IMG/VR virus record: IMGVR_UViG_3300025759_000004
Location: 1 to 61,509 of that record
Source of the DNA: a virus
Taxonomy: Duplodnaviria; Caudoviricetes
Strand: one strand, 5' to 3'
DNA length: 61,509 nt
Part shown: one piece after another, positions 1,102 to 51,521 of the stretch
How positions within the stretch are numbered: position 1 is the stretch's first letter
Layout of the letters: the number at the start of each line of letters is the position of its first letter
Program-made: the position numbers and the translations under genes
Notes under the pieces: model-generated
Database searches by the model: none
What the model was told of the DNA's origin: nothing
The model's input: the letters and a program-made list of their open reading frames with translations, nothing else

Positions 1102-1863
1102 TTAAAGGAAATCAATAACTTGCGAAGCGTCTACGTTTTCAATTAATTTTTCAACAGCTTGTTTTTTAAGTTCTGAAACGCGTACATAAGCACTGGTTCC
1201 TTTTATATTTAATTTATCAGCTATATAGTTGGCTGAATGCTTTTCGCAATCTAAGCCATAAGATAGTCTTAATACTTCGTATTCAATAGGTGTTAAATAT
1301 TTTTTCATTAAACCTTTTAGGTAAATATTAAGTATATGTATATTATATGGCTCTGATTTATCTGCAATTTGATAGATCATATTTTCTTCTTCATCATCAG
1401 TTTGAACAGCGTCTATACTTAAAAACATACTATTAAAAAACATTGCAACCATCTTTTTGTCTTTTGGATTTTTACGTATTTCGTTTAATTTATGTTCGGG
1501 TATACGCATGTTACCTCTAGCCATATCTATTCGTCTTCTTAAATGCCCCTTAATTCTTTTTGAAAAAAACGATTTTAATGTTTTTTCAATGTCCTCAGAT
1601 TCAATTAATTTTTCCCAATCTAATTTATCTACCGCTCTAATTAAGGCTTCAGATCCTATTTGTATTAAATCATTAATTGTTAATACGCCAGAAGCTTGTT
1701 GAGTTGTTGAAAATTTACGGGATAAGTTTTCTACAAGTGGTAAGAATTTAACTATAAGCTCATCTCGTGAGTATTCATCCCAAAACTTGCCTTCTAAATT
1801 AGATATAGAAGTCTTAAGATCTTTTTTATATCTTACGTAATTTTGTACGTTATATTTTTTCAT
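1102..1863 (-). CDS. Phage sigma70-family RNA polymerase sigma factor
   Basis: Region 2 (LPLVENLSRKF...DLIQIGSEALIRAVDK...RIKGHLRR...RIP) and region 4 (LTPIEYEVLRLSYGL...IADKLNI...VSELKKQAVEKL). Confidence 0.85.
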   Translation of the reverse strand: MKKYNVQNYVRYKKDLKTSISNLEGKFWDEYSRDELIVKFLPLVENLSRKFSTTQQASGVLTINDLIQIGSEALIRAVDKLDWEKLIESEDIEKTLKSFFSKRIKGHLRRRIDMARGNMRIPEHKLNEIRKNPKDKKMVAMFFNSMFLSIDAVQTDDEEENMIYQIADKSEPYNIHILNIYLKGLMKKYLTPIEYEVLRLSYGLDCEKHSANYIADKLNIKGTSAYVRVSELKKQAVEKLIENVDASQVIDFL

Positions 1864-3606: not shown

Positions 3607-3827
3607 TAGTTTATTTTGGTAAATTTAAATTTATTAACAACAAAGTTATTAATGAATTTACCCTTAGACGAAGATTCCGTTAATCCTCGCCAATAAAAGC
3701 GCGGTACATTTAAATATCTATATAAACCTTCGTTTTTAAAGTATATAGTTAAATATTCATCTTTGTTGTTATACTCAGCAAACTCAATAGCTGAAGAGTC
3801 TACTATAATTGTTTCTACTTTGTTCAT
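3606..3827 (-). CDS. KTSC domain protein
   Basis: VDSSAI..AEY....LTIYFKNEGLYRYLNVP......L..SSSKGKFIN. Confidence 0.88.
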   Translation of the reverse strand: MNKVETIIVDSSAIEFAEYNNKDEYLTIYFKNEGLYRYLNVPRFYWRGLTESSSKGKFINNFVVNKFKFTKIN

Positions 3828-3873
3828 AATTTATCTATTTTTATTCGTGTTAAACTTATATTTTAATGGAATG

Positions 3874-4137
3874 CTAATTCTCTTTATACATTCCGTGGTA
3901 TTGTACTTCAAACTCTTCACGTATTTCACGGCCATATGCAGTATTAAAACCATAGCTATGTGTACCTCCTAAGCTCACCTGCTCAATCATAAAATGAAAG
4001 ATTTCTTTAGGGGTATATCCATATTGTTTAGCTACAATTCTGCATGCTTTAGCCATACGTTTTACATTATGACGTAATTCGCCATAGTTTTCGGTTATAT
4101 AATCTTTTATATATTTTTGCGATATTGTTTTACTCAT
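3874..4137 (-). CDS. Hypothetical protein
   Basis: Start overlaps upstream stop (TAATG). Confidence 0.65.
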   Translation of the reverse strand: MSKTISQKYIKDYITENYGELRHNVKRMAKACRIVAKQYGYTPKEIFHFMIEQVSLGGTHSYGFNTAYGREIREEFEVQYHGMYKEN

Positions 4138-6014: not shown

Positions 6015-6045
6015 TTTAATTTAGTTTTAATTTATTATATTATCT

Positions 6046-6249
6046 TTAGGTGTTCGTGTTAAGCTTATGTTCTAATTCTTCTATAGCAAGCTTGTAACCA
6101 AAATTCATCGCTAATTGCATTAGTAACAGATCGGCTGATCCGCCATTTGATTGTGCAAATCTTTCTAAATAATCTCGATCGTGAGGTGTTGCTACAATAC
6201 CTCTATCCAGCATTCTATACTGGTCTTTAATAAAATTCTCAATGTTCAT
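6046..6249 (-). CDS. Hypothetical protein (start MNIENF)
   Basis: The longer ORF-track start overlaps tRNA-Gln, so the ATG at 6249 was chosen. Confidence 0.6.
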   Translation of the reverse strand: MNIENFIKDQYRMLDRGIVATPHDRDYLERFAQSNGGSADLLLMQLAMNFGYKLAIEELEHKLNTNT

Positions 6250-6269
6250 AATAATTAATTTAAAATTAG

Positions 6270-6342
6270 TTGACTCATCAGGGATCGAACCTGAACTCTT
6301 CTGGACCAAAACCAGACGTGTTACCAATTACACTATGAGTCA
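6270..6342 (-). tRNA. tRNA-Gln(UUG)
   Basis: TGACTCA acceptor stem, anticodon arm TCTGG-TT-TTG-GT-CCAGA, T loop TTCGATC, U1-A72. Confidence 0.93.
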
Positions 6343-6347
6343 TTTAG

Positions 6348-6426
6348 TGGACGTGGCAGGAATCGAACCTGCGTTACCGGCTTTAGGTGACATTCCCCCC
6401 GTTTCCGGTCAAACCATTTCACGCCC
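6348..6426 (-). ncRNA. Minimal tmRNA-like tRNA-like domain (no mRNA-like domain)
   Basis: GGGCGTG/CACGTCC-A acceptor with G3.U70, stemless D loop ending GGTTTGAC, ACCGG/CCGGT helix, AAC then GCAGG-TTCGATT-CCTGC T arm. Confidence 0.7.
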
Positions 6427-6430
6427 ATAT

Positions 6431-6734
6431 TCCCTCACTTGTTTTCAACCTAAAAGGCTTGGTGCTTTGTAGCACATGTTTCCCGCGAGGGACGGCGGCA
6501 CACCGGTATGCGCGCCGGTTTTAGGTATGCTCGTATGTTTTTCGGTCGAGTTACAGCACCACACTCGTGCCCATACCTGTATATTTGAGAAGTGGATAGA
6601 ACTGGAATGTTAGAGATGCACGTCATTTACTAGTATGTACCCTGACTTATACTCTTTTCTCTGTTTATACTATCTTTCACCTTCATCGAGCCGAACCATT
6701 ATCGCCTTTAATCTGGTTTCCAGACTTCTTCTCA
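6431..6734 (-). ncRNA. Cluster of unassigned structured RNA modules
   Basis: GC-rich ORF-free region with closing stems TCCCTCGC/GTGAGGGA, ACCGG/CCGGT, AGGTATG/CATACCT and TGAGAAG/CTTCTCA. Confidence 0.55.
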
Positions 6735-6920
6735 TTTACGTCGCCACGCCCTGTGAACACTAGCAGAGACTTCTTGGCTGACGATTTGTATTGTATTACC
6801 TGTTTTATGCTCAATGATCGGGACATACGAGTATGTTTTAGTTGTTGAGCACTTCACACACGTTTTATATCCCAAATCTAAACGGATCGGGTGTACTTTA
6901 TTTCCACATCTACAATACAT
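6732..6920 (-). CDS. TraR/DksA-like C4 zinc-finger protein
   Basis: CRCGNKVHPIRLDLGYKTCVKC. Confidence 0.6.
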   Translation of the reverse strand: MYCRCGNKVHPIRLDLGYKTCVKCSTTKTYSYVPIIEHKTGNTIQIVSQEVSASVHRAWRRK

Positions 6921-6974
6921 AGTTATTTATTTTTTTTGGTTCATATATATTATCTTTAGGTAATCGTGTCAAAC

Positions 6975-7163
6975 TTATATTTTCCTAGTTTGATGGTACA
7001 TTATTTCGATCGCTCGTTGTAGGGTTTCAGCGTGTATAGCATTGTAGGTATCGCCGTCTGCTTCATACTCAGACAATTGCCAGTCTACGCTATCATACAT
7101 TAAATCTAGTGTAACGTCAGCAACACCTTGTGCTACTTCATTTATGTTTATTTCTTTAGTCAT
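6975..7163 (-). CDS. Small acidic hypothetical protein
   Basis: ORF in early region. Confidence 0.55.
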   Translation of the reverse strand: MTKEININEVAQGVADVTLDLMYDSVDWQLSEYEADGDTYNAIHAETLQRAIEIMYHQTRKI

Positions 7164-7574
7164 AGCTTAATATTTCTTGTAGTTCGCCAAATGTCATTTC
7201 ATCTATTTGTTCCTGTGTATATCCCTCAAACGCTGGGTGATTATACGCTGTTGTCCATGGATTATTCATACTCATAAATTTCTGGGTCGGTGTGCGCCAT
7301 CCACTCGATGTCATTTAACCTAAAACCACGGTCAATAATTACTTCTTCATATCCTTCGTGACTCATACCTTCTAGTACTTCTATACGAGATACGAGGCCA
7401 CTTGCAAAATCTAATATCGTTATATACATAGTGTTCAGTTTTATAAGTTATATTCTTTTCTGTAATGCGACGTGATTTGATCGACGGCTACTACAAATTC
7501 ATCTTCAGTTAGTACACCAGATTTTATTTCTTGTAATGCACAATCTAGTTCATAAAGTAAATGTACCATAATGC

Positions 7575-7784
7575 TTAGAATAATGAGTCATATACTCTTT
7601 CGTTAACAAAATCTCGGTGTTCATCGTTGAGATAGTCGATTTGTTCTTCAGTCATTTCTACCCCGTCGTAATCTGCAGATACTAAGAATGCATCTACAAA
7701 GTCTGGATAATCTGAATGGTCAATACCTTCAAATTCCATATTGTCTATTTTTCCAAAGTCTAATTTGTCTAAATTGAATTTCAT
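7575..7784 (-). CDS. Small acidic conserved phage protein
   Basis: GIDHSDYPDFVDAFLVSADYDG.EMTEEQ motif. Confidence 0.65.
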   Translation of the reverse strand: MKFNLDKLDFGKIDNMEFEGIDHSDYPDFVDAFLVSADYDGVEMTEEQIDYLNDEHRDFVNERVYDSLF

Positions 7785-7803
7785 AATATTTAAGTTTTAA
7801 TAG

Positions 7804-8064
7804 TTAATCGCCTGTCCAGTTGTTATGGTTATTAGCATAGAATGAAGCCGCACCGGAATTGGTTAGTTTTCTTCGGTATTCATATTCAACTCTGTTATCT
7901 AATAACTCATCAATCTTATCTTTCATTTCTTGTTCAGTATCTGCTGGAAAAGAAATAAGGTGATAAGGGTAAAAGTTAAAATACTTACAGGTGTAAGCCG
8001 AGCATTCTTGACCGTTGTACGCGGTCCACTCGTGGTATTCGTATGGTATATTTCTGTGTTGCAT
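7804..8064 (-). CDS. Hypothetical protein
   Basis: ORF in early region; start at MQHRN chosen. Confidence 0.55.
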   Translation of the reverse strand: MQHRNIPYEYHEWTAYNGQECSAYTCKYFNFYPYHLISFPADTEQEMKDKIDELLDNRVEYEYRRKLTNSGAASFYANNHNNWTGD

Positions 8065-8066
8065 AG

Positions 8067-8255
8067 TTACTCCCATATATAAGTTATACCTTTATAATTA
8101 AACCATTCGGTAAGCCCGTCTTGGTCTTTGTTTTCGTCATAGATAAAACCAAAGCGTTTTGGTATAGCACCGATCAAGTAACCTTTGTAATATTTATCGG
8201 TTAGTGCACACGGTTGGCCGTCTTTGTTTTTGAAGAATTTAATGGTTTTTTTCAT
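8067..8255 (-). CDS. Hypothetical protein (start MKKTIK)
   Basis: The longer ORF-track start overlaps a promoter motif. Confidence 0.55.
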   Translation of the reverse strand: MKKTIKFFKNKDGQPCALTDKYYKGYLIGAIPKRFGFIYDENKDQDGLTEWFNYKGITYIWE

Positions 8256-8318
8256 AGTTCTAATTTTTAATTCAGTTATATTATCGTTAGGTGTTCGTGT
8301 CAAATCTATATTTTACCG

Positions 8319-8615
8319 TTAAGCAAAGTTAAATTTTTTAGTATATACTGTTTTACCTGTTACTTCTTGTACACCACCATTCACTGCTTTTACAACAGAT
8401 CGAATTAGGTGTAATGGGGTTTTATAGTCGTATATACAATCTGGTAAATTAGGCCCACGCCATCCACATTGCATGTTACTTATAGCGAAGCTTGTACCGT
8501 GGCTATTGGTGTATTGGTAACCTACCGTTCCGCTCTCGTTTTCGTACACAAATAGTGTTTTAGGGTTTTTTCCACTGCGTTGTGCAGTATTTACTTTAGC
8601 AATTAGTTTTCTCAT
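8319..8615 (-). CDS. Hypothetical protein
   Basis: ORF in early region. Confidence 0.6.
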   Translation of the reverse strand: MRKLIAKVNTAQRSGKNPKTLFVYENESGTVGYQYTNSHGTSFAISNMQCGWRGPNLPDCIYDYKTPLHLIRSVVKAVNGGVQEVTGKTVYTKKFNFA

Positions 8616-8751
8616 AATAATTCTATATTTAATTTGTTAGCAGCGAAGTTCATTAATACTTCGGTATAATATTGTGCATCACCGTGTAGGTTTTCAATAT
8701 ACCCACCTCCGTGGAAATAGTTGAGTGCTTCAATTACTTCTTCTTTCATAG

Positions 8752-9003
8752 TTATGCGGTTTTAAAAGTATTATCGTTGTACATAGTGTGTATGCGGTTA
8801 GAATATTTCTGTGATTCCCATAGTTTAGTGTGAGAATAAGTTCTACCTTTACTACTCGCTTTTTTCATAGGTGTTTTTACCTTATTATACTCTTTTTGAG
8901 TAAATTTAGTACAATAATCTCCGTTTGTTACTTCAATTTGGTGTGTTCGGTTTCGTTGTCTTCGTGAGTTCGTTAAATACTCACACGCTTCTTTCATTGT
9001 CAT
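8752..9003 (-). CDS. Basic hypothetical protein
   Basis: ORF in early region. Confidence 0.55.
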   Translation of the reverse strand: MTMKEACEYLTNSRRQRNRTHQIEVTNGDYCTKFTQKEYNKVKTPMKKASSKGRTYSHTKLWESQKYSNRIHTMYNDNTFKTA

Positions 9004-9090
9004 AATTAAAAGGTGTTACTTTGTTTGCTTATTATTTTAGTGGTACTGTTATTACAGAGTACTTCTGTACTTGTAAGTAATTTCATTACT

Positions 9091-9136
9091 GCGACAATAG
9101 GTTGTTAAGTATTATATAGTAACTAGCTTTTGTCAC
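9091..9136. promoter_or_regulatory. 46-bp inverted-repeat site, copy 2
   Basis: GCGACAATAGGTTG-N18-CTAGCTTTTGTCAC; abuts the promoter motif at 9138. Confidence 0.55.
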
Positions 9137-9187
9137 ATATATTATCGATCGGTGTTCGTATCAAACTTATATTTTTCTGCAATTATT

Positions 9188-9478
9188 CTATTTACCAACA
9201 TTTCTCTTTACCCAGTTAACTATAAACTCTAGTCTTTCTAATTCATTAGGTATAAGAATTCTAGTATAGGTATAGATAGTTACGTCGGTTCTTCCCCTAC
9301 CATGCCATACTCCCGTCCAATACTCATCTTTCGTTTTAACTTTCTTATTGATCTGGTATAATCGGTCTAGGTAGTAATTTGATATTCTAACATAACCTGA
9401 CTTGTAGGATTTTAATTGTCTTCCGTCACTTAGTTGGTATGTAGCGGTACCATTACTATTAATTTCTAATAATTCCAT
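9188..9478 (-). CDS. Hypothetical protein
   Basis: Downstream of a promoter motif copy. Confidence 0.65.
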   Translation of the reverse strand: MELLEINSNGTATYQLSDGRQLKSYKSGYVRISNYYLDRLYQINKKVKTKDEYWTGVWHGRGRTDVTIYTYTRILIPNELERLEFIVNWVKRNVGK

Positions 9479-9651
9479 AATAACTTTTATTTTAGATTCA
9501 CATATATTATCTTCACCGACTCGTGTTAAACTTATATTTTTTTTTCATTCGTATTAAACCTTGATCACCGAAATGCTATACACTTCGTAGTAAACCTTTC
9601 CCGCAGGTGCAGGTGCTATACAATGCTATACACCCTGACCGGGTGCAGCGG

Positions 9652-9741
9652 TTAGTGCCAGGTTGTTTCAGAAGGAGCTGGTCCTAAAAATTCTCTGAAT
9701 GCTCTTAGCTTAAGGATAATGTAGTGACTAAATTTTCTCAT
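9652..9741 (-). CDS. Putative 29-aa peptide MRKFSHYIILKLRAFREFLGPAPSETTWH
   Basis: Manual translation; A-rich start context. Confidence 0.35.
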   Translation of the reverse strand: MRKFSHYIILKLRAFREFLGPAPSETTWH

Positions 9742-9793
9742 TTGTTAAAGTTTTAAAGTTAATAAAGGTAGGTTAAGATTGGGGCGAAGAAGC

Positions 9794-10114
9794 CTACTTT
9801 TCAGTAGACTCTTCAAGTTCGACTCGTTCGATTACAATATCCCTAACATTTGAAGGCATATCGGTTGATTGTGACCAGTAGCCTCTTTTGATCCAGCATG
9901 GCATTATGCTTAGCTTAGGTAACATTACTTTAAGCACTTCGTCGTGATTGTAGGTGATCTTTTGGTTTTTGTTGTTAACAAAGGTGATGATTTGATTTCG
10001 GCCATACCAAGACTTTCGGACAACAAAGTTCTTGCGAGTAATTGGTGGAAAGATTTCAGATAATTGCTCTTTTGATAATTTGGAGATTGTTTGGTTTAAT
10101 AATTCAGTGTTCAT
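9794..10114 (-). CDS. Hypothetical early protein
   Basis: Downstream of two tandem promoter motifs. Confidence 0.7.
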   Translation of the reverse strand: MNTELLNQTISKLSKEQLSEIFPPITRKNFVVRKSWYGRNQIITFVNNKNQKITYNHDEVLKVMLPKLSIMPCWIKRGYWSQSTDMPSNVRDIVIERVELEESTEK

Positions 10115-10332
10115 AATTTAAAATTTAATGGTTTATATTTATTTGTTATTTATTTTCAGTTATATTATCATTTACTATTCGTATCAAACTTATATTTAGT
10201 TATTTTAATTAATTTCATTTTTATATTTCTTTTATTTTTTATTCAACTATATTATCTAAATAGATCCGTGTTAAACCTATGTGCTATACGCGTTGCTATA
10301 CACGCCTTCGGCGTGCTTGGGGCTAGCTGAGG

Positions 10333-10491
10333 TTAGAACACCTCGAGCTGTTTAAGTAAGCTTTGATATGGGCTTGGAGTTAGATTGCGCTTTAATATAT
10401 CCAAAGATTCAATTAAGCCTTCTTTAGTTACATTACCGTTTAGGTATTGATTTAGATCATCAATGGTTGAGAGAATTAGCATTTTTTCCAT
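10333..10491 (-). CDS. 52-aa hypothetical protein (MEKMLILST...QLEVF)
   Basis: Manual translation; below the ORF-track cutoff. Confidence 0.5.
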   Translation of the reverse strand: MEKMLILSTIDDLNQYLNGNVTKEGLIESLDILKRNLTPSPYQSLLKQLEVF

Positions 10492-10544
10492 GTTATTAGT
10501 TTTAATTGTTATACATTTTAAGTTGGTAGATTTGGGGGTTTAGT

Positions 10545-10715
10545 TTATTTATATTGTTGTATTAATTTGTTTATATCTTTTAGATTTGAAAAATGGTAAT
10601 GGTATATAACTTGATCATTTGTTATATTGTAGACAGTAAAGTCATACATTTTGTATTTAGGTGAATAATAGATTTTGAAATAAGTTTTTGTTAAAGGAAA
10701 ATTGTTATTAAGCAT
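10545..10715 (-). CDS. 56-aa hypothetical protein (MLNNNFPLT...)
   Basis: Manual translation; directly downstream of a promoter motif. Confidence 0.5.
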   Translation of the reverse strand: MLNNNFPLTKTYFKIYYSPKYKMYDFTVYNITNDQVIYHYHFSNLKDINKLIQQYK

Positions 10716-10839
10716 TTTAGTTTATTTTAAATTAATATTTATATTTTAAATTCAACTATATTATCTATATTTACTCGTATTAAACCTATATGCTACGAAT
10801 TTGCTATACACGCCTTCGGCGTGCTGGAGCTGGTCCAGA

Positions 10840-10998
10840 TTAGAATATCTCGGACCAATGCTGCTCTTCCTCCTCCCAAAGATCGTCCCATTCAGATTCA
10901 GGCAGAATTACTGTTATGATGCCATCTGAATCAATACGATAGTTTATTTTGTTTTTGGTTAAATGATTTAGGACTTCAGGTTTGATATAATTTTTCAT
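10840..10998 (-). CDS. 52-aa protein with acidic C-terminus (MKNYIKPE...WDDLWEEEEQHWSEIF)
   Basis: Manual translation; first gene of the minus arm, downstream of a promoter motif. Confidence 0.55.
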   Translation of the reverse strand: MKNYIKPEVLNHLTKNKINYRIDSDGIITVILPESEWDDLWEEEEQHWSEIF

Positions 10999-11337
10999 AG
11001 TATATTAATATTTATATTTTAAATTCAACTATATTATCCTGATCCACTCGTGTCAAACCTATATGCTATACAGCTTCGCTGCGCTACGCTCCGCTCCGCG
11101 CTTTAACCAGGCCACAAAAACCCCGATAGCACCAGCAAAATCCAGCAAAAAGGCAAAACCTTTTCAAAGTATCGAAAAAATGGAGGGGGACCCCTTCACG
11201 AAAAACCTATTTTCTATTTAGGACCAGCCGTTTAAAACTAGCGGTAACCCAATAACCCTCTATAAGCAACGTATTTTTAGTTACAGCAGTAAAAAATTAA
11301 AAAAATATGTGAGTATATACATTATAATACTAATCAT

Positions 11338-43883: not shown

Positions 43884-46800
43884 ATGGAGTTAGAAGAGTA
43901 CATTGACAGCCTTGTGGCTCAAGGTTTGTCTCAAGAAGAAATAAAAAAATTAGTAGACGAGTTTATTGCTAATGGTAATCAAGTTCCTGAAGCTAATATA
44001 GAATTTAAACAAGCGGTAGGGCAAAAGCCTTTAGAAATAGCAAAGATAAATGTCGGTGTGCCGGGTGCAGTTGCATCGACGGAAATACTAGCACCAAAGT
44101 CGGAATCATTATTGGAAGATGGTTTTGTGGAATCAGTATTGGCTCCAGATACACCGGAAAATAATTTAGAAAGACGAGCACAAGGATTTATACCCCCTAA
44201 TCATTACTTAATTAAGCAAGGAGACAAAACCCATTTAGATTTTTACGAAGGCATTGATTTTATGGGGCAAACCCCAGAGGATTTTAAGCAAATGGAAATA
44301 AAGCCATGGGATAATTTTTCATTAGAAGATAAAACTAAAGCTAAATTAAAATATAAAGATTTAGATATTGAATTTCCTTATTATTATTTTGGTGACGACA
44401 ATAGTTCTTTTGTAGAAAATAATTATGGTACAGAAGAATTAAAAGCGCTTAATATAGATATAAAAGATTTTGATGGGTTTTTAAAAGAAAGAGGTCTTTC
44501 TGACGACTTTATTAAAAAACAAAACACTGGTTTTTATAAAGCTGAAGTTAGTGATAATCCTTTTAATTTAGACTCATCTGTACAAGCTGAAAACCAAAAT
44601 AAGCTAGACATTGCAAAAGAGAGACAGCTTAGAAAAATGCTTAATCTTTATGTTGAAGACAGAAACAAAAGATCTAGAGAAAAACAGGCTGCTGAATATA
44701 TTTTTTCTAACCCTGAAAATTTAGAAGAACAAGAGCTTATAAAAGCCGCAAAGAAAATAGAAAATGGCCAGCAGGGCTTATTAGACCCTTCATCTTTCAG
44801 CGCTTATTATGAATATCAATTTCCAACATCTACAGCAAAAGATAGAGAATATTTAGCTGCTAAAATTGACGAAGTATCCAGGCTTGAAAGCCAAGGCAAA
44901 GTTAAAGCAGGCTTAATGGGGCTTTTAGATTTTGGATCAAATTTTGTAAGTGGGTTTCAAAATGAAGTGGCAGGTACGGTTGCTACTATAAGTGATGTAT
45001 TAGGATTTGAAAATGCTGCAGATGAAATACGTGTGCAGGAAGAAGAAGAAATGTTAGCGGACCCTAGTATGTCTTATGCTCGCGTTCAAGGTAAAAAAGT
45101 AACTATTGACGATATTGAATACATTAAGAATGAAGACGACGGTCAAATATATAATACCACTGTAGGCTATAATATAGGGTATACAACGTCTCCAATTGAA
45201 TACAAAAGAATTAGCGATGCTTTAGATAAAAGCGAAGAAGAGGGATCGGATTGGGATGCTAGAGGAATGGCTATTCAGGCTGGGCAAGTTACAGGCGGTA
45301 TTACCTTTCAGGTTATTGGAACGAAAGGGTTAGGTGGCATTACCAGCGCTGCAGCAACAAGAGCAGCAGCATATGCTAATGGATTCAAAACAGTTGCTGA
45401 ATATAAAAAGGTTAGAGATTTAGCTCAAGCTATAGGTGGTGCTAAAGTTCCAAATTTTAGGGTTCCTATTAAAAAGTCTACTGTTGACTTAATTACATTT
45501 CAATCAATGTATGGAGCATCCTTGGGTTATGAAGAAACACTAAAGCAAGCTAGAGCTGCTGGATTAGGTGATGATAAATCCTATGAATTAGCAACTAGTG
45601 CTGCAGGGCAAATGTCTGTTTTATTTGCTTTAACCGCTAGATTAAACCCAAGAACAAAAGCAACTGAAGCTTTATTTGGGAAAACAGGTATTAGAAGCCA
45701 AATAACAAAAGCAATTAATTCTTACAAAACAGAAGGGCAAAAAGGGTTTTTAAATAGTCTTACTAATGGTATTAAAAACACAGTGGCTAACCTACCAAAA
45801 ACAGCAACTGTATTTGCAGAAGAAGGTACTAAAGAAGTATTTCAAGAAAATGTTCAGCAGTTTGGTGAATATACAATTATAAATGAAAATATTAATCAAG
45901 AAGTTGGCTTTGATCTTTTAAAAGATACATATACAATTAATGATATTAAAGTTACAACTGCATTATCATTTTTAACAGCAGGAGGTCTTGCAAATGTTAG
46001 AACGCCTAATTTTAAGCCAGATCCATTAAACCAACTTAGAACATTTTATAGTATTGGTTCAGATTTAAATTTGTTAAAAACTAATTTAGATAAAATGGTT
46101 TTAAATGGCGATATTACGCAAGATGAATCTAAAAAGGTTTTTAGAGATGCTAAAGCTGTTTATACACAATTGGATAAGATGCCTTCTAATATTGATCCGT
46201 CAATTACATTAGAAGTTGCTAATGCTTTACAAAATATTCAAGACTTAGAAGTTGAAAAGAAAAATACAGATCCAGCATTTCACGGGCCTATAAACGAAAG
46301 ACTGGAACAAGCTAGACAAGAGCTTGGAGATATTTATATAAACCAAGATGTTACAAAAGCTCAAAGAGCTATGAAAGCTTTAGGCTTAAAAGGCGAAACA
46401 AAAGCGGCAAACACCGATAATGAATTCCAAGGTTATTTAAGAACTTTGGTAGATTCCGATGGCAAACAAATATACACGGAGGAACAAATACAAGATATTA
46501 ATAGAATTGGTGTTTTTGTAGACAATACAGGGGATATATTAATAAATAAGGCAGCGGCTAGAAGATTAGGCGTAACAGAAACAGGTAGACATGAGTTTTT
46601 ACATAGGTTAATTTATACAACTGTAAAAGGAAAGCCAGAACTTATATCTAAAATAGGTAAAGATTTAGATGCATATGTTACTGAATTAATTGCAAAAGGC
46701 GATTTAAAAGGAGGCAAAAACTTTAAAGTAGATTTACAAGGCTATAAAGATAGAGCTTCTGCTAAAATTGATAGAATAAACGAACTAAGACAAAAAGCTA

Positions 46801-49800
46801 AACAATACTTGGATCAAGGCGCTTTAACGCAAGAAAAGTATGATGCTTACATGGAGGGCTACAATAAAACAGAACTTCAAATAGAAGCAAATACGTTTGA
46901 AGAAGTACTCACCTTGTTATCTGAAAGTATTGCTACAGGTGATTTAGTTTATGAAAAAGATCAAGATTTATTTGTTAAAATAACAGATTACATAAGAAAT
47001 TTTTTACAATCAATTGGTGTTACCGATATAAATCTAAAAGATGGTAAAGCTACATTTAATTTTATAAGAGACTATAATAAAGCTTTTGATAAAACCGAAT
47101 TTAATAAAGCATTTCAAAAATTAGCTGACACAGTTGCCGATCCTAATGTTGAAGATTCTATATTTATTAAAGAATCTACAAAAATTAATGAAGATCGTAA
47201 TAAAAAAGTTGACGACTTTGTAGGTCCTAAAGATGCTGATGGTAATTATATTATGACAAAAAAAGAGTGGGATTCCGGAGGAATTGCCACTGCTTATATG
47301 GAAATTATTGGAGGTACGGCTTTAGACGGTTTGATTAGAAGAGGTATAGAAGGTAACTCTGTATACGGAAAACCTATTGAAACATTTTTAGAAGACGTTA
47401 AGCAAGGTTTAACTGGAACTTTAATGAGATTTAACCCTGAAGAAAACAATAGCTTAATGGGTTGGATTAATGGCCAAATGGCGGCCCGTAAAGGTGATGT
47501 GCTTAATAAATACAAAAAAGAACAACCGTTAGGAAGTAAGTCATTAGATGTTGAAGCCGGGGAGGTTGGTTCAGTAAGAGAAGCTGTTGCTGAAGAAACC
47601 GCTGAAGACTTTATAACTACAGAAGAAAGATTAGCAGAGCAAGAAGCCTCACTTAAAAGAGGACCCTCATTTTTAGAGGCATTACCTGTTGACCAAAAAA
47701 CAGGGGAAAAATCTTTTAAAGATGAAATTAGAGAAGAGGTAGATAAAAGAATTAAAAGGAATATACAATTTTTTGATGCTGCTACATCTGCTAATAGAAC
47801 TGTAAAGCCTTTTATTGCAGAAATTAAAAAAGATTTAAGTGATAATTTTTACAAGCAAACTAGAAAATGGTTTAATAATTACGAGGGTGGATATGAAGGT
47901 TTTTTAAGAGATTTTAGAGTAGATTTGCTAAATAACTACACAACAACATATTTATCTAAACATCCTATTTTTAGAAAAGGCATATTAAAAAGAATTAATG
48001 GTAAATGGACAGCGCCTAAAAAAGTTAGAAGTTCATACGGAGGGTTTAAGTATGACTGGGTAGACGACAATGGCAAAAAATTAAAGATAGACAGGGATGA
48101 TGCAGCTGGAAGAGGTTTAACTTCTGGGCCTGAATTTATAAAAAGAAACCCCAACATTACTAAACTCATCGGGGAAAATGAATTTATTGATTACCATTTT
48201 GAAGATGGTGCTTTACGTAAAAAACGTAAACAAAATCCAGAAAAAGCTTTAGCTATTCAGCTTGCTAGCGAAATTGGATTAGAAATATTACAAAATGATT
48301 TATTAACAACTGATGAAAGCGGTAATATTATTGGCGGCCCATTAACAGAAGCTATTATTGACAGAGCGGGTTTATTAGAAATGGTTTTAGCAGATAACGC
48401 CATGATAACATTAGCGAGCGATATTGATAGAGGTAATGTTAAAGAGTCATTAAAAAAGAGTGTTGTTAAACCAATATATGAAAAAGGATTAGATATTTTA
48501 GCTCAGCAAGGAGAAACAGCTTTTAATGAATATATTGATGGCTTACCTGATCAAGAAGCGGCTCAATATGTTAAACGCTATTTTGATGACAAATATTGGC
48601 AAGTAGGTTTGTATCAAAGCGCTAAAGCTAAAAATAGAGGTTTAGCTTATGAAAAACTTGTAAAAAGAGTTTTAAGTTCAAGCGGAAACAGAGATATTAA
48701 AGTTGAATTAATTGGTAAAAACCCTAAAATGGGTGGTGATATTTTATTAAAATTTAAAAATACCAATATAGCCATAGAATTAAAACTTAATGAATTTGCT
48801 CAAATGGGTAGTTTTACTATAAAAAATGTAGACGGAAAACCTGTGTTTACTTTAAGGAACATGAGCCCCGAGTTAGAAAATTCAATAAAAGAAGCTTTAG
48901 AAAAAAGACAGCCAGCTTTAGATAGATATTTTGAAGAAGCTAAAAAATATGCAGAACAAAATGGTTATGCTATACTAATTGAAAATAACGAAATTCGCGC
49001 CCCAAAACCAGTATTTGAATACTTAAGAGCTGAAGGCTTTTTAGAAAAAACAAATGTAACAGTAAAAGCGGATCAAAGGATTATAAATGCATTATACCGA
49101 GCTAAAGAGGTTTATTACATGAATATCGGGGACAAAGGGCTATTTGCTCTTGGTAAAGATATATATAACTTAGGTGTACCTGTTCTTTATTCTGATGTTG
49201 ATTTGGTTATAAGACTAACAAGAACTTACGATGCTAAATATGGAAGAATTGCTACAACTAGAGCCTTCCCTGTTCTTAATGGTAATTTAATAACACCATC
49301 TAAATCTTTAGATAATGCTTCTAGCGTAACAGAATTGCTAGATAACTTTCAAAATTCAATTAAAGAATCTACTAAAAAAGAAGAGCAAAAACCTGAACAA
49401 GAAAAAATAACTAGTGATATAAGTTCAGAGTTTAATAAAATGATGGAAGAAATATCCGGAATTCCTAAAGATGAAGTAATATCGCAAGCTAGGGGTAAGG
49501 TACTAGGTAAAAATAAAAGCGGAACTTGGTTTATACCATATAGTCATGAGGATTTTGTTGGACTTATGTACCCATTGCTAGCCAAAGGCAAAAAGGGTGA
49601 GCAGCAATATGAATATATTAAAAATAATATAATACAACCTTACGCTGAAGCTGAGTACAAAATAAATCAAGAAAGGCTTAGAACCGCCGCTGATTTTAAA
49701 GCACTTAAGGCGCAAATAGAAGAGCAATTAGGCAAATCAAAAAATACATTTACAAGATCGCCTTTAAGTAAACTTTTAAACAAAGAAGCTTGGTCCGGAT

Positions 49801-51521
49801 TTAAAAATGAGGATGCGGTAAGAGTATTTTTATGGAATTTACAAGGAATGGATATTCCTGGATTAGATGCTAAAGATATAAAAAAGTTAGTTAGTATAGT
49901 TAATACTAATGCAGAGTTGCTTAAATACGCCTTTGGTATAAAAAGTTTAATGAAAGGTATGGAATACCCCGCCGCTAAAAAAGGTTGGGAGACAAGCAAT
50001 ATTTCTTATGACATCCAGCAAAATTTAGAAACAACACGAAGAAAAGAATTTTTAGCTAATTGGCAAGAAAATGTTGATCAAGCTTTTTCTAAAGAAAATA
50101 TGGCAAAACTTGAAGCTATATTTGGCCCTAAATATGTTGAGGCTTTAAGAAATATATTAGAAAGAATGCGTACGGGCAAAAATAGGAAAGCAAATAATAG
50201 TAGATTAGAAAATGCCTTACTGGATTATTTTAATGGATCTGTGAGTGCTATTATGGCTTTAAACACAAAATCAGCAGTGTTACAGCAGCTTTCAAATATA
50301 AACTTTTTAAATTGGACAGATAATAACCCAATAGCGGCCGCGAAAGCTTTTGGCAATCAAAAACAATACTGGAGAGATGTTATTGATATTTTAAATTCAG
50401 ACTATCTTGTTAATAGACGAGCTGGATTAAAAATAAATGTAACAGAATCAGAGCTTGCTGCAATGGCTAATTCTAAAAATAAGGTAAGAGCTTTTATTGG
50501 TTTGATTGGTGAAAAAGGTTTTATACTTACAAAGTACGGAGATAGTTTTGCAATTGCAACCGGAGGAGCAACTTTTTATAGAAATAGGTTTAATACTTAT
50601 TTAAATCAAACAGATGCTGATGGTAATAAAATCTATACAGAAGAAGAAGCTAATAAAAAGGCTATGGTTGATTTTATCGAAATATCGGAAGATACTCAGC
50701 AATCATCTAGACCTGATAAAATTAGCATGCAACAAGCGGGTAACCTGGGTAGGTTAATATTAGCGTTTGCTAATACACCCTCTCAGTATGCGAGGCTTAC
50801 TAAAAAAGCATTGTTAGATTTAAAAAACGGTAGAGGAAGTAAACGTGAGAATATAATGAAAATAACATATTATGGCTTTGTGCAAAATTTAATATTTTCA
50901 TTTATGCAGCAAGGATTGTTTTCAATATTCTTTGGAGATGATGACGATGAAGAAATTAAAACAATTAAAGAAGCAGAAGAAAAGGCTCAAAGAAAACAAA
51001 AGCAAGCTTTTAAAGCGGCTAATGGTGCATTTGATGGATTTTTAAGAGGGCTTGGCGTTATGGGAGGTTTAGCAAGTACTTTAAAAAATATGGGTATTAA
51101 AGTGTACGAAAAGTCAAAAAGAAAAAGACCTGATTATGCAAGCACAGCTTATGAATTACTAAATATTTCTCCGCCTATTGATTCTAAGCTTTCAAAAATT
51201 AGAAGTGGGTTTGCTGCTCTTGATTTTGATTTAGAAGAAATAAAGAAAAAAGGATTTAAGGATATTTCAAATCCAGGATACATGGCTGGAGCAAGGGTAA
51301 TAGCGGGAACTACAAATGTAGGGATAGATAGAATTTTTACAAAAGGAAGAAACATAGCTAATGCTTTTGATTCTGAGTTAGCAACTTGGCAAAGAATATT
51401 TTCTTTAGGTGGATGGCAAGGATATGAGTTAGGTATTGAAGACGAGGAAGATGATGATCCAAAAAAGTTTTTAGATTTAAACATTAATATAGATTTAGAA
51501 TTGCCAAAAATAAAATTATAA
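43884..51521 (+). CDS. Giant multidomain (polyvalent) virion ejection protein, 2545 aa
   Basis: HEFLH zincin motif, sigma-region-2-like segment, PD-(D/E)xK-like motif, hydrophobic segments. Confidence 0.75.
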   Translation: MELEEYIDSLVAQGLSQEEIKKLVDEFIANGNQVPEANIEFKQAVGQKPLEIAKINVGVPGAVASTEILAPKSESLLEDGFVESVLAPDTPENNLERRAQGFIPPNHYLIKQGDKTHLDFYEGIDFMGQTPEDFKQMEIKPWDNFSLEDKTKAKLKYKDLDIEFPYYYFGDDNSSFVENNYGTEELKALNIDIKDFDGFLKERGLSDDFIKKQNTGFYKAEVSDNPFNLDSSVQAENQNKLDIAKERQLRKMLNLYVEDRNKRSREKQAAEYIFSNPENLEEQELIKAAKKIENGQQGLLDPSSFSAYYEYQFPTSTAKDREYLAAKIDEVSRLESQGKVKAGLMGLLDFGSNFVSGFQNEVAGTVATISDVLGFENAADEIRVQEEEEMLADPSMSYARVQGKKVTIDDIEYIKNEDDGQIYNTTVGYNIGYTTSPIEYKRISDALDKSEEEGSDWDARGMAIQAGQVTGGITFQVIGTKGLGGITSAAATRAAAYANGFKTVAEYKKVRDLAQAIGGAKVPNFRVPIKKSTVDLITFQSMYGASLGYEETLKQARAAGLGDDKSYELATSAAGQMSVLFALTARLNPRTKATEALFGKTGIRSQITKAINSYKTEGQKGFLNSLTNGIKNTVANLPKTATVFAEEGTKEVFQENVQQFGEYTIINENINQEVGFDLLKDTYTINDIKVTTALSFLTAGGLANVRTPNFKPDPLNQLRTFYSIGSDLNLLKTNLDKMVLNGDITQDESKKVFRDAKAVYTQLDKMPSNIDPSITLEVANALQNIQDLEVEKKNTDPAFHGPINERLEQARQELGDIYINQDVTKAQRAMKALGLKGETKAANTDNEFQGYLRTLVDSDGKQIYTEEQIQDINRIGVFVDNTGDILINKAAARRLGVTETGRHEFLHRLIYTTVKGKPELISKIGKDLDAYVTELIAKGDLKGGKNFKVDLQGYKDRASAKIDRINELRQKAKQYLDQGALTQEKYDAYMEGYNKTELQIEANTFEEVLTLLSESIATGDLVYEKDQDLFVKITDYIRNFLQSIGVTDINLKDGKATFNFIRDYNKAFDKTEFNKAFQKLADTVADPNVEDSIFIKESTKINEDRNKKVDDFVGPKDADGNYIMTKKEWDSGGIATAYMEIIGGTALDGLIRRGIEGNSVYGKPIETFLEDVKQGLTGTLMRFNPEENNSLMGWINGQMAARKGDVLNKYKKEQPLGSKSLDVEAGEVGSVREAVAEETAEDFITTEERLAEQEASLKRGPSFLEALPVDQKTGEKSFKDEIREEVDKRIKRNIQFFDAATSANRTVKPFIAEIKKDLSDNFYKQTRKWFNNYEGGYEGFLRDFRVDLLNNYTTTYLSKHPIFRKGILKRINGKWTAPKKVRSSYGGFKYDWVDDNGKKLKIDRDDAAGRGLTSGPEFIKRNPNITKLIGENEFIDYHFEDGALRKKRKQNPEKALAIQLASEIGLEILQNDLLTTDESGNIIGGPLTEAIIDRAGLLEMVLADNAMITLASDIDRGNVKESLKKSVVKPIYEKGLDILAQQGETAFNEYIDGLPDQEAAQYVKRYFDDKYWQVGLYQSAKAKNRGLAYEKLVKRVLSSSGNRDIKVELIGKNPKMGGDILLKFKNTNIAIELKLNEFAQMGSFTIKNVDGKPVFTLRNMSPELENSIKEALEKRQPALDRYFEEAKKYAEQNGYAILIENNEIRAPKPVFEYLRAEGFLEKTNVTVKADQRIINALYRAKEVYYMNIGDKGLFALGKDIYNLGVPVLYSDVDLVIRLTRTYDAKYGRIATTRAFPVLNGNLITPSKSLDNASSVTELLDNFQNSIKESTKKEEQKPEQEKITSDISSEFNKMMEEISGIPKDEVISQARGKVLGKNKSGTWFIPYSHEDFVGLMYPLLAKGKKGEQQYEYIKNNIIQPYAEAEYKINQERLRTAADFKALKAQIEEQLGKSKNTFTRSPLSKLLNKEAWSGFKNEDAVRVFLWNLQGMDIPGLDAKDIKKLVSIVNTNAELLKYAFGIKSLMKGMEYPAAKKGWETSNISYDIQQNLETTRRKEFLANWQENVDQAFSKENMAKLEAIFGPKYVEALRNILERMRTGKNRKANNSRLENALLDYFNGSVSAIMALNTKSAVLQQLSNINFLNWTDNNPIAAAKAFGNQKQYWRDVIDILNSDYLVNRRAGLKINVTESELAAMANSKNKVRAFIGLIGEKGFILTKYGDSFAIATGGATFYRNRFNTYLNQTDADGNKIYTEEEANKKAMVDFIEISEDTQQSSRPDKISMQQAGNLGRLILAFANTPSQYARLTKKALLDLKNGRGSKRENIMKITYYGFVQNLIFSFMQQGLFSIFFGDDDDEEIKTIKEAEEKAQRKQKQAFKAANGAFDGFLRGLGVMGGLASTLKNMGIKVYEKSKRKRPDYASTAYELLNISPPIDSKLSKIRSGFAALDFDLEEIKKKGFKDISNPGYMAGARVIAGTTNVGIDRIFTKGRNIANAFDSELATWQRIFSLGGWQGYELGIEDEEDDDPKKFLDLNINIDLELPKIKL

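What the first reader, a model, noticed from the sequence alone, without database searches (positions are those of the whole stretch)
47166..48455. Sigma-factor-like domain embedded in the giant virion ejection protein: possible injected sigma factor
Seen: nt ~47320-47550 (about aa 1146-1222) read ALDGLIRRGIEGNSVYGKPIETFLEDVKQGLTGTLMRFNPEENNSLMGWINGQMAARKGDVLNKYKKE...SLD. Knowledge: sigma70 region 2 has the pattern DL.Q.G.IGL..AVERFDP.....F.TYA...IRG...D.LR followed by SLD. In crAss-like and N4 phages the equivalent largest ejected protein is a virion RNA polymerase, but no DxDxD polymerase motif was seen here. Inference: this phage may inject a sigma-like module that redirects host core RNAP to its own early promoters (the 10-copy motif), with the stand-alone sigma at 1102-1863 acting later. 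That would be an unusual transcription-takeover strategy.
Basis: partly seen in the sequence, partly recalled or inferred. Interest (0 to 1): 0.9.

Follow-up and report, generated by a model that had tools for sequence, protein, structure and literature searches.

The report
Sigma-like domain inside giant phage protein
A 2,545-residue protein encoded at the end of the virion-gene block of a marine Flavobacteriia-type phage contains a stretch predicted to fold like the core-binding, promoter-opening domain of bacterial sigma factors, so the phage may carry its own promoter-recognition module into the cell, although neither packaging nor binding to RNA polymerase has been shown.

Summary
The quoted peptide is at the stated place: aa 1146 onward of a 2,545-aa ORF, 43884-51521 +. 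An AlphaFold2 model of aa 1000-1560 places aa 1101-1213 in a sigma-factor domain-2 fold. In a search of 48,161 PDB chains, rows 1-30 are sigma chains, led by T4 gp55 (Z 5.2-7.5). A second look gave the same ranking.

Sequence support is weak. Pfam and NCBIfam find nothing. Profile-profile comparison gives P = 0.0066 in the correct register.

An acidic disordered linker follows, then a basic, confidently modelled domain B (aa 1262-1515) with no known fold. A near-invariant HExxH motif lies upstream. The module defines at least 873 sequence clusters, almost all giant proteins.

No polymerase motif or fold was found. The gene sits where related phages encode large proteins annotated as structural. 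The early region carries nine strong copies of a 27-nt promoter-like motif, and a separate sigma gene also exists.

The injected-sigma reading is plausible but untested; I put the full mechanism at about 0.35.

The parts
43884..51521 (+). Giant ORF, 2,545 aa (P0001), last large gene of the rightward virion-gene block, followed by small ORFs and an amidase/endolysin gene (51951-52358)
   Evidence: full-length homologs of 88-96% identity are also 2,545 aa
46590..46604 (+). HEFLH (HExxH, aa 903-907): zincin-like metal-binding motif, nearly invariant in the family
   Evidence: HE..H lies upstream of domain B in 155 of 156 family proteins of 2,000 aa or more that have domain B. No Pfam peptidase family hit.
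47184..47522 (+). Sigma-factor domain-2-like fold, aa 1101-1213. Conserved core: [FY][ND]P..N.[SD]L.G[FYW][IV]NSQL..R.
   Evidence: model; fold searches; atlas; hhalign. Among 129 homologs, aa 1183 and aa 1194 are aromatic in 129 of 129 and aa 1202 is R or K in 127 of 129.
47523..47666 (+). Acidic, predicted-disordered linker, aa 1214-1261 (S.D ... ETAED conserved)
   Evidence: pLDDT below 50 for model residues 218-251 and 253-257; conserved D and E.AE columns
47667..48428 (+). Domain B, aa 1262-1515: the most conserved part of the region (TTTYLSKHP.FRKGI.K, KIDRD, RGLTSGPE.I.RNP, KQNP). It is basic (aa 1301-1400 net charge +11) and has no known fold.
   Evidence: model with pLDDT 88.8 and pTM 0.80; best Z 4.0, with 0 of 48,161 chains at Z>=5; Foldseek found 0 at E<=1e-3
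49431..50933 (+). C-terminal conserved region, aa 1850-2350; not folded here, function unknown
   Evidence: conservation profile and near-invariant columns
6036..11056 (-). Nine strong copies of a 27-nt promoter-like motif, TTKAYACGR-N9-GATAATATA (preceded by ATATAAG/GT), each a few tens of nt (20-50 in eight of the nine copies) upstream of the ATG of a small leftward ORF. Copies lie at 11056-11030, 10783-10757, 10274-10248, 10187-10161, 9529-9503, 9164-9138, 8303-8277, 6972-6946 and 6062-6036.
3812..3875 (-). Weaker tenth copy of the motif, directly upstream of ORF 3606-3827
1102..1863 (-). Stand-alone sigma-70-family sigma factor, 253 aa, covering regions 2 and 4
   Evidence: PHROG_351 E 2.4e-18; TIGR02937 E 9e-11, 41.7 bits against a cut-off of 42.9, spanning aa 33-239; PF04542 at 19.6 bits, below cut-off; sources name homologs as sigma-70 family

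Best explanation
The 2,545-aa protein is a virion-associated, multi-domain ejection or cargo protein of a podovirus-like Flavobacteriia phage. In order it carries a zincin-like HExxH region, a sigma domain-2-like module (aa 1101-1213), an acidic flexible linker, a basic domain B of novel fold (aa 1262-1515) and a conserved C-terminal part.

Proposed mechanism, all inferred:
1. The protein is made late, packaged, and enters the cell with the DNA.
2. The sigma-2-like module, possibly freed by the protein's own metalloprotease, docks on the beta-prime clamp helices of host core RNA polymerase, as sigma domain 2 and T4 gp55 do.
3. Together with domain B, which stands in for sigma domain 4, it brings the enzyme to the nine or ten copies of the early motif before any phage gene has been expressed.
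4. The separately encoded sigma (1102-1863), which lies downstream in the same leftward transcription direction, then serves later classes.

Shown here: the fold likeness, the domain order, the family-wide conservation, the gene position and the promoter-like motif. Inferred: packaging, ejection, processing, core binding and promoter reading.
For: - Fold. Rows 1-30 of 50 in an all-against-all search of 48,161 PDB representatives are sigma domain 2, led by T4 gp55 (7d7d_F: Z 7.5, rmsd 3.3 A, 95 aa). The second look agrees, with sigma70 376-447 at rmsd 1.9-2.1 A.
- Look-alikes. In the ESM Atlas, 4 of 30 look-alike clusters (score 0.95) belong to a set whose listed cluster is viral, with PF04542 on 41% of members.
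- Sequence. hhalign gave P 0.0066 in the expected register, better than the reversed control and six other regions.
- Selection. The module is found in 873 clusters at E<=1e-3, and almost all of the 150 listed are 2,000-3,300 aa. Positions matching the sigma 2.2/2.3 aromatic and basic residues are invariant by class.
- Layout. The order of sigma-2 fold, disordered acidic linker, then basic domain parallels the sigma2-linker-sigma4 layout of group-4 sigmas (the parallel itself is established knowledge of ECF sigma architecture).
- Gene position. It is the last large gene of the rightward block that holds terminase, portal, structural-protein PHROGs and a crAss muzzle-like gene.
- Relatives. The syntenic large proteins of Elemovirus (gp18) and Cellulophaga phage phi38:1 (gp101) are annotated as structural proteins. 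They share profile similarity with the N-terminal and HExxH regions of this protein (phi38:1: E 9.1e-11 and 6.8e-10; Elemovirus: domain E 1.6e-10).
- No polymerase. No polymerase motif, family or fold was found in the protein.
- Promoters. The early region has a strongly conserved two-block motif, and the strict host-type pattern does not occur in front of those genes (the consensus is recalled).
Against: - All structural Z values are under 8. The tool notes that for helical domains this range can reflect a common arrangement, so only the uniform ranking argues for specificity.
- Sequence evidence is weak. No curated sigma model matches, even at E<=10. hhalign probability is only 5.8%, and against the phage's own sigma family it is 0.2%.
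- Nothing resembling sigma domain 4 was found.
- Polar residues that contact core in region 2.2 of canonical sigmas are not conserved here. The position aligned with the region-2.2 glutamine is D39/G22/A17/S11/Q9 of 129.
- The sigma-2-like region was detected in only 107 of 174 family proteins of 2,000 aa or more, against 156 for domain B. The profile came from close relatives, so this may partly be a sensitivity limit.
- Virion association is inferred only from position and from annotations of distant relatives. Those relatives lack the sigma-like, B and C modules.
- The early motif contains TTTG and a TAnn..TG 20 nt downstream. It could therefore be a strong host-sigma promoter needing no phage factor (consensus recalled).
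Confidence: 0.35

Rival explanations
1. The sigma-2-like domain does bind host RNA polymerase, but not as a promoter-specificity factor. It would act as a decoy that displaces host sigma (host shut-off), or as a tether that hands the entering DNA end to RNA polymerase so that transcription pulls the genome in.
For: The fold evidence is the same as for the main reading. No sigma-4-like domain was found, and the polar residues of region 2.2 and of the DNA-reading positions are poorly conserved, which fits binding without sequence reading. Packaged proteins that act on host RNA polymerase at time zero are known: T4 Alt is discussed in PMC5512222 (passages read). Transcription-driven genome entry in T7 is established knowledge.
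Against: Positions 1183 and 1194 stay aromatic in 129 of 129 homologs and 1202 basic in 127 of 129. That would be unnecessary for a pure clamp-helix binder if they correspond to the melting residues of region 2.3. The conserved basic domain B next to the module suggests nucleic-acid contact. The early region has its own strongly conserved motif, which calls for a reader.
Confidence: 0.2
2. The sigma-2-like fold has no link to RNA polymerase. It is a helical bundle re-used inside an ejection protein, for example for contacts within the ejection complex or for holding DNA. Host sigma-A holoenzyme reads the early promoters.
For: Z values are at most 7.7. No curated sigma model matches. The domain was not detected in 67 of 174 long family members. 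The early motif can be read as a host-like -33/-7 promoter with a 20-nt gap (consensus recalled).
Against: Thirty consecutive top rows being sigma domain 2 out of 48,161 chains is hard to get from a generic bundle. Language-model features independently point to viral Sigma70_r2 clusters. The profile-profile alignment falls in the right register.
Confidence: 0.25
3. The giant protein is itself a new kind of virion RNA polymerase, as in N4 or crAss-like phages. The sigma-like domain would be its built-in promoter reader, and domain B or the C-terminal region would be the catalytic part.
For: It sits in the gene position that crAss-like phages use for the virion polymerase; a muzzle-like gene lies upstream, and the gp66 role is described in 10.1101/2020.03.07.982082 (passages read). 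Domain B has invariant D1403, R1404, K1369 and K1449 and a DxxGR-like string. Its fold is unknown.
Against: There is no DxDxD motif, and no polymerase family, PDB sequence or fold match. Domain B has only one invariant acidic residue. QDE-1 and mitochondrial RNA polymerase appear only as noise rows (Z 2.9; E 1.3 or higher). The C-terminal region was not folded, so this rival is not excluded.
Confidence: 0.07
4. The protein is not packaged. It acts inside the infected cell late in infection, for example as a late transcription or assembly factor.
For: Packaging has not been observed. The gene is in the late block, so the protein is present late in any case.
Against: The phage already has a conventional sigma gene. 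The size, the position after the tail genes, and the similarity of the N-terminal part to proteins annotated as structural in phi38:1 and Elemovirus all fit a virion protein.
Confidence: 0.1

Closest known systems
T4 gp55 (late sigma factor consisting of a sigma-2-like domain only)
   Same: It is the best structural match (7d7d_F: Z 7.5, rmsd 3.3 A, 95 of 137 residues). It shows that a sigma-2-only module can direct host core polymerase to a short -10-type element (established knowledge).
   Different: gp55 is a small free protein made during infection, and it needs gp33 and the sliding clamp. Here the domain is internal to a 2,545-aa protein of the virion-gene block, followed by a linker and a novel domain. 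No sequence similarity was tested, because no gp55 sequence was at hand.
Group-4 (ECF) and other sigma-70-family sigma factors
   Same: They share the domain-2 fold. The profile alignment register is D/E-rich helix ... F..(N/G).. aromatic-hydrophobic .. basic. They also share the layout of sigma-2, then acidic flexible linker, then a second domain.
   Different: No Pfam or NCBIfam sigma model matches. No sigma-4 helix-turn-helix was found. The domain is embedded in a giant protein.
Virion RNA polymerases of N4 (gp50) and crAss-like phages (phi14:2 gp66)
   Same: Each is a giant protein encoded with the virion genes and thought to solve transcription at time zero. A crAss muzzle-like gene lies upstream here.
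   Different: No DxDxD motif and no polymerase family or fold was found. The passages of the gp66 preprint that I read mention no sigma-like domain. The module here would borrow the host's catalytic core instead.
Polyvalent proteins of phages and conjugative elements (Iyer et al. 2017, PMC5512222)
   Same: They are very large multi-domain proteins proposed to be delivered with the DNA, and often carry a zincin-like metallopeptidase proposed to cut the polypeptide (abstract and passages read). A near-invariant HExxH is present here.
   Different: The word 'sigma' occurs 0 times in that paper's main text. None of its Pfam LPD or enzyme domains matched this protein.
T4 Alt (packaged ADP-ribosyltransferase)
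   Same: It is a head-packaged protein that re-directs host RNA polymerase to phage early promoters on entry (as described in PMC5512222; passages read).
   Different: Alt is an enzymatic modifier of the alpha subunit, not a sigma-like specificity module.

Membership tests
Sigma-70 family | Domain 2 fold (regions 2.1-2.4) | tested here: met
   On a predicted model, rows 1-30 of 50 are sigma domain 2 (Z 5.2-7.5). 29 of the top 30 rows in the second look are sigma-containing entries.
Sigma-70 family | Match to the curated sequence models (Pfam Sigma70_r2 PF04542; NCBIfam TIGR02937) | tested here: not met
   No hit at E<=10. The six-frame PF04542 scan hit only the gene at 1102-1863. NCBIfam found none at E<=1. 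hhalign gave only P 0.0066 and probability 5.8%.
Sigma-70 family | Domain 4 (helix-turn-helix reading the -35 element, binding the beta flap) | tested here: inconclusive
   Domain B against full-length sigma alignments gave P 0.51. No sigma-4 row appeared in the fold searches of domain B. Some family members, such as T4 gp55, lack domain 4.
Sigma-70 family | Binds core RNA polymerase (beta-prime clamp helices) | not testable with these tools
   This needs a pull-down or a structure.
Sigma-70 family | Confers promoter-specific initiation | not testable with these tools
   A candidate target motif exists, but no transcription data. The RNA runs found hold only contigs with small shares.
Two-barrel virion RNA polymerase (crAss-like gp66 / QDE-1-like) | DxDxD metal-binding loop in a double-psi beta-barrel | tested here: not met
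   The regular expression D.D.D gave 0 matches in 2,545 aa. There was no PDB sequence match for the protein or the family profile.
N4/T7-like single-subunit RNA polymerase | Match to the polymerase family or fold (palm with motifs A-C) | tested here: inconclusive
   There was no Pfam hit at E<=1 and no fold match for aa 1000-1560. Residues 1-999 and 1561-2545 were not folded.
Polyvalent proteins (Iyer et al. 2017) | Giant multi-domain protein of a phage carrying a zincin-like metallopeptidase motif | tested here: met
   The protein is 2,545 aa with at least four conserved regions. HExxH is nearly invariant. This is at motif level only, with no peptidase family hit.
Polyvalent proteins (Iyer et al. 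2017) | Packaged in the virion and delivered with the DNA | not testable with these tools
   Only synteny and relatives' 'structural protein' annotations are available.

The most novel reading that the evidence does not exclude
A large, previously undescribed family of marine Flavobacteriia phages injects its own sigma. The module is a sigma-2-like domain joined by an acidic finger-like linker to a DNA-binding domain of new fold that replaces sigma-4. It is carried inside a giant ejection protein and perhaps released by the protein's own zincin protease. It would capture host core RNA polymerase at time zero and start transcription from a dedicated set of early promoters. This would be a third solution, beside virion RNA polymerases and reliance on host sigma, to the problem of the first transcript.
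Probability: 0.3. Interest if true: 0.9.

Novelty: new variant of a known kind. Interest (0 to 1): 0.7.

Why it matters
Phages are known to start transcription in one of two ways. They use the host holoenzyme on host-like promoters, or they bring a complete RNA polymerase in the virion (N4, crAss-like and phiKZ-like phages). A virion-borne sigma-like module that borrows only the host's catalytic core would be a new take-over strategy.

The claim is directly testable, by binding of a roughly 430-aa fragment to core polymerase and by in vitro initiation at a defined 27-nt motif. Independently of function, domain B is a confidently modelled, strongly conserved domain without a known fold.

In four full-text searches and the passages read I found no description of a sigma-like domain in a virion or polyvalent protein. 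Subscription-only papers and supplements were not searched.

Tried and rejected
- Complex prediction. I sent the sigma-2-like domain (alignment A1, residues 96-223) with the first 420 residues of beta-prime from a Flavobacteriaceae MAG. The result was no verdict (score 0.23, 0.21; mark 0.32; controls not run). This is not evidence either way.
- Whole-protein searches. Pfam, PHROGs, phmmer against PDB and tblastn against 50,697 phage records all gave nothing. The family profile against PDB sequences gave only coiled-coil noise.
- hhalign against the phage's own sigma family gave probability 0.2%.
- ESM Atlas on domain B gave no usable hit.
- Foldseek against BFVD with the 561-aa model gave nothing at E<=1e-3. 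The best row was an uncultured-virus protein at E 4.5e-3.
- Pfam on 16 divergent family members gave one sub-threshold DUF hit and nothing else.
- Stand-alone versions of the module. The eight short hits I looked up are mostly on contigs barely longer than the gene, so they are fragments. No free form was shown.
- Co-variation of the early motif with the module. Four related viral contigs are fragments. The exact motif is absent from them, and the 54-kb one ends at the sigma gene, before the early region would begin.
- Strict host-type promoter pattern (recalled consensus). It gave 11 matches against 4.3 expected, none in front of early genes.
- Transcription start mapping. The RNA runs found are stored as contigs with shares of 0.05-0.11, which cannot show starts, so I did not lay them.
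- BLASTP of P0001 against the syntenic 3,859-aa protein of MW202828.1 gave only E 0.05-0.07 patches.
- A tblastn with the 3,694-aa Elemovirus protein was over the size limit and I dropped it.
- Kyte-Doolittle scan found no membrane-span-like segment at mean 1.3 or more over 19 aa.
Full report
**The window**

The window is a complete virus record of 61,509 bp. Its two ends repeat 127 bp (family D5), which I read as a circular assembly. Two gene blocks diverge near position 11,100.

- The leftward block has many small ORFs, then a GP88-like gene, a DNA-binding protein, a helix-turn-helix protein and a sigma factor (1102-1863). It continues with Erf and an exonuclease and, across the record junction, a primase-helicase, thymidylate synthase, MazG, a resolvase and ribonucleotide reductase.
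- The rightward block holds two tail-fibre genes, GroEL, a holin, a GroES-like gene, terminase and portal. These are followed by proteins matching "virion structural protein" PHROGs, a 1,655-aa protein, a gene with crAss muzzle Pfam domains, a short tail-fibre-like gene and two unassigned genes. The 2,545-aa ORF (43884-51521) and an amidase come last.

By terminase and portal, the nearest deposited phages are an uncultured podovirus (MW202828.1; 65% and 50% identity) and Flavobacterium elemoviruses (44% and 42%). More distant are Cellulophaga phages including phi38:1 (34%), plus Tenacibaculum and Maribacter phages. Both searches matched 87 records, and every one with a recorded host infects Flavobacteriia. 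Four bacterial-genome contigs encoding relatives of the giant protein are binned with Flavobacteriaceae or Bacteroidia MAGs.

**The observation**

No D.D.D motif exists in the protein.

The protein has no hit in Pfam (E<=1), PHROGs, PDB sequences or the 50,697 phage records. It is nonetheless not an orphan. A word-seeded search found 77 relatives among 7,995 scored candidates, all unnamed and 1,431-3,099 aa long. A five-sequence profile of aa 1000-1560, read against 1.84 billion cluster representatives, found 873 clusters at E<=1e-3, 696 at E<=1e-10 and 229 at E<=1e-30. Almost all of the 150 listed are 2,000-3,300 aa. Of eight short hits I looked up, several lie on contigs barely longer than the gene, so they are fragments.

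**Anatomy of the region**

Conservation across 78 aligned relatives is low in the first 550 residues. It rises around a nearly invariant HExxH (aa 903-907), is high from aa 1000 to 1550 with a peak at aa 1300-1480, dips, and is high again at aa 1850-2350.

A template-free AlphaFold2 model of aa 1000-1560 (37-row alignment; mean pLDDT 76.5) resolves four parts:
- a helical part, aa 1000-1083;
- a helical domain, aa 1103-1213 (pLDDT 80-87);
- an unstructured acidic stretch, aa 1217-1256 (pLDDT below 50);
- a mixed alpha/beta domain, aa 1262-1515 (pLDDT about 90).

**The helical domain is sigma domain 2-like**

VIA-align compared the model with 48,161 PDB representatives without any Foldseek pre-filter. 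Rows 1-30 of the 50 listed are sigma factors or chains of initiation complexes whose titles name a sigma. They include T4 gp55, SigI6, SigB, sigma-32, pro-sigma-K, SigC, sigma-28, SigE, RpoS, CnrH, sigma-70, SigK, SigA, ShbA, SigH, SigW, AlgU, SigR, RpoE and BldN. For a few chain-F/C rows I did not verify chain identity.

These rows have Z 5.2-7.5, rmsd 2.1-4.5 A (except two multi-domain alignments) and 71-100 aligned residues. All fall on model residues 95-224. Row 31 is an epitope scaffold, and unrelated helical proteins follow from Z 4.9.

Re-aligning Foldseek's own 357 candidates gave sigma-containing entries in 29 of the top 30 rows, followed by a drop from Z 4.5 to 3.7 within three rows. 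The tightest fits were to E. coli sigma-70 residues 376-447 (rmsd 1.9-2.1 A over 71-73 residues), which are regions 2.1-2.4. Foldseek alone found nothing at E<=1e-3; its best sigma rows were RpoS 5h6x_B (probability 0.75, TM 0.58 on the target) and sigma-32.

The tool warns that Z below 8 can be a common helical arrangement. I therefore rest the claim on the uniform ranking, not on the scores.

**Independent leads and sequence tests**

Language-model features of aa 1095-1222 put 4 of 30 nearest Atlas clusters (score 0.95) in a set whose listed cluster is viral and has PF04542 on 41% of members. The other 25 of 30 fall in unnamed clusters of 103-134-aa proteins.

Curated models fail on this stretch:
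- Pfam at E<=10;
- a six-frame PF04542 scan of the whole record, which finds only the separate sigma gene;
- NCBIfam at E<=1.

I then built a profile of 129 family members for this stretch and a profile of 30 sigma region-2 stretches taken from four Flavobacteriaceae or Bacteroidia MAGs. The reversed control gave P 0.42 and six other regions of the giant protein gave P 0.06-0.96. Against the phage's own, low-diversity sigma family there was no signal.

Within the family, aa 1183 and aa 1194 are aromatic in 129 of 129 sequences, aa 1185 is P in 120, aa 1191 is L or I in 127 and aa 1202 is R or K in 127. The position aligned with the core-contacting glutamine of region 2.2 is not conserved.

**What follows the sigma-like domain**

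The linker (aa 1214-1261) is acidic, with conserved S.D and ETAED strings.

Domain B, folded alone with 46 rows, gave pLDDT 88.8 and pTM 0.80. None of 48,161 chains reached Z 5. The best Z was 4.0, with several low-scoring winged-helix DNA-binding domains among the rows, such as DpnI at Z 3.8 with rmsd 2.7 A over 69 residues. Foldseek found nothing, hhalign against full-length sigmas gave P 0.51, and the Atlas gave no hit.

Domain B is the most conserved part of the region, with invariant N1304, T1354, K1369, D1403, R1404, T1413-S-G1415, R1421 and K1449 in 37 sequences. Residues 1301-1400 have net charge +11. I read it as a nucleic-acid-binding domain of unknown fold. That is an inference.

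The gap between the two is 13-67 residues (median 31.5). HE..H lies upstream of domain B in 155 of 156. The sigma-2 profile came from the closer relatives, so some misses are probably a sensitivity limit. In one subgroup the alignment shows a shortened version that keeps the second half of the domain.

**Is it a virion protein?**

This was not shown directly. The case has three parts:
- Position. It is the last large gene of the virion block, after the muzzle-like and fibre-like genes.
- Relatives' annotations. The syntenic large proteins are annotated "structural protein" in Elemovirus (gp18, 3,694 aa) and in Cellulophaga phage phi38:1 (gp101, 1,691 aa). I read only the record annotations, not the proteomics behind them.
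- Profile similarity. With HMMER filters off, the N-terminal profile of this family matches phi38:1 gp101 colinearly (profile 54-412 on residues 51-426, E 9.1e-11), and the HExxH-region profile matches gp101 (E 6.8e-10) and Elemovirus gp18 (domain E 1.6e-10 and 3.7e-9). These regions are compositionally biased, so the E-values may flatter.

The same relatives lack the sigma-like, B and C-terminal modules. The slot therefore holds a modular, fast-changing giant protein.

**Promoter-like motif**

Nine strong copies of TTKAYACGR-N9-GATAATATA, preceded by ATATAAG/GT, lie on the minus strand between 6036 and 11056. Each lies a few tens of nt upstream of the ATG of a small ORF (20-50 nt in eight of the nine copies). 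A weaker tenth copy lies at 3812-3875. One further loose match at 41076-41050 lies antisense inside a gene and is probably chance.

The motif contains TTTG and, 20 nt on, TA..(nn)TG, so it partly overlaps the Bacteroidetes -33/-7 consensus as I recall it. Its best-conserved block, GATAATATA, is shifted upstream of that -7 element. The strict recalled pattern finds no site in front of these genes. Who reads the motif is open. The stand-alone sigma cannot be present at time zero, because its gene lies downstream in the same leftward direction (inference from the gene order).

**Interpretation**

The reading that fits most observations is a packaged, multi-domain ejection protein that brings a sigma-2-like module plus a DNA-binding partner domain into the cell to engage host core polymerase at the early motif. 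The HExxH region possibly frees the module, as proposed for polyvalent proteins (PMC5512222; abstract and passages read). I put this at about 0.35.

Rivals:
- the domain binds RNA polymerase but acts as a decoy or tether (0.2);
- the fold has been re-used with no polymerase link, and host sigma-A reads the promoters (0.25);
- the protein is an unrecognised polymerase (0.07);
- the protein is not packaged (0.1).

The co-fold of the domain with beta-prime gave no verdict and is listed only under attempts.

**Novelty**

Four full-text searches were run, and targeted passages were read in three works: the polyvalent-protein paper (0 occurrences of "sigma"), the jumbo-phage comparative paper and the gp66 preprint. 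None gave a description of a sigma-like domain in a virion or polyvalent protein. Supplements and subscription journals were not covered.

I class the finding as a new variant of a known kind: a phage sigma-like factor in a new carrier and context. It also defines a large uncharacterised protein family and a probable new fold.

Noticed in passing
window 6269-6342 (-): A tRNA-Gln (anticodon TTG) gene sits inside the early region among the promoter-like motifs.
   Followed up: no
window 47667-48428 (+), aa 1262-1515 of the giant protein: Domain B is confidently modelled (pLDDT 88.8, pTM 0.80) and strongly conserved, yet matches no solved chain at Z>=5 among 48,161. It is a candidate new fold.
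   Followed up: partly
window 46590-46604 (+): An HExxH motif is conserved in nearly every family member (155 of 156). This suggests a zincin-like protease inside the giant protein, but no peptidase family matches.
   Followed up: partly
window 34596-39563 and 39593-40987 (+): One 1,474-position PHROG (14478, 'virion structural protein') is matched by two adjacent ORFs: positions 2-183 by the first and 913-1221 by the second. The first ORF also carries a Fib_succ_major domain and the second the crAss muzzle C-terminal domains. The muzzle-like protein therefore looks split or rearranged.
   Followed up: no
window 11595-12911 and 12913-15630 (+): Two adjacent tail-fibre or spike genes share a 300-nt repeat (75% identity) and the same C-terminal intramolecular chaperone domain, Peptidase_S74.
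   Followed up: no
window 16038-17594 and 23460-24065 (+): The phage encodes its own GroEL-type chaperonin and a GroES-like protein, as the related elemoviruses do.
   Followed up: no
L006:741-12320 (MW202828.1), L007:28852-39936 (NC_055854.1), L048:17423-22498 (KC821614.1): The syntenic giant genes of related phages encode 3,859, 3,694 and 1,691 aa. Profile similarity to the window's protein is limited to its N-terminal and HExxH regions: both for phi38:1 (KC821614.1), the HExxH region only for Elemovirus and, weakly (domain E 3.5e-5), for MW202828.1. The central and C-terminal modules are exchanged between lineages.
   Followed up: partly
window 1102-1863 (-) and relatives L043, L044: The stand-alone sigma is far better conserved between related contigs (65-69% identity) than the giant protein's module (28-36%). 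It is very common in metagenomes, with 8,000 of 8,000 scored candidates at E<=1e-3.
   Followed up: no
window 1-127 and 61383-61509: An exact 127-bp terminal repeat, most simply an assembly overlap of a circular or circularly permuted genome.
   Followed up: no
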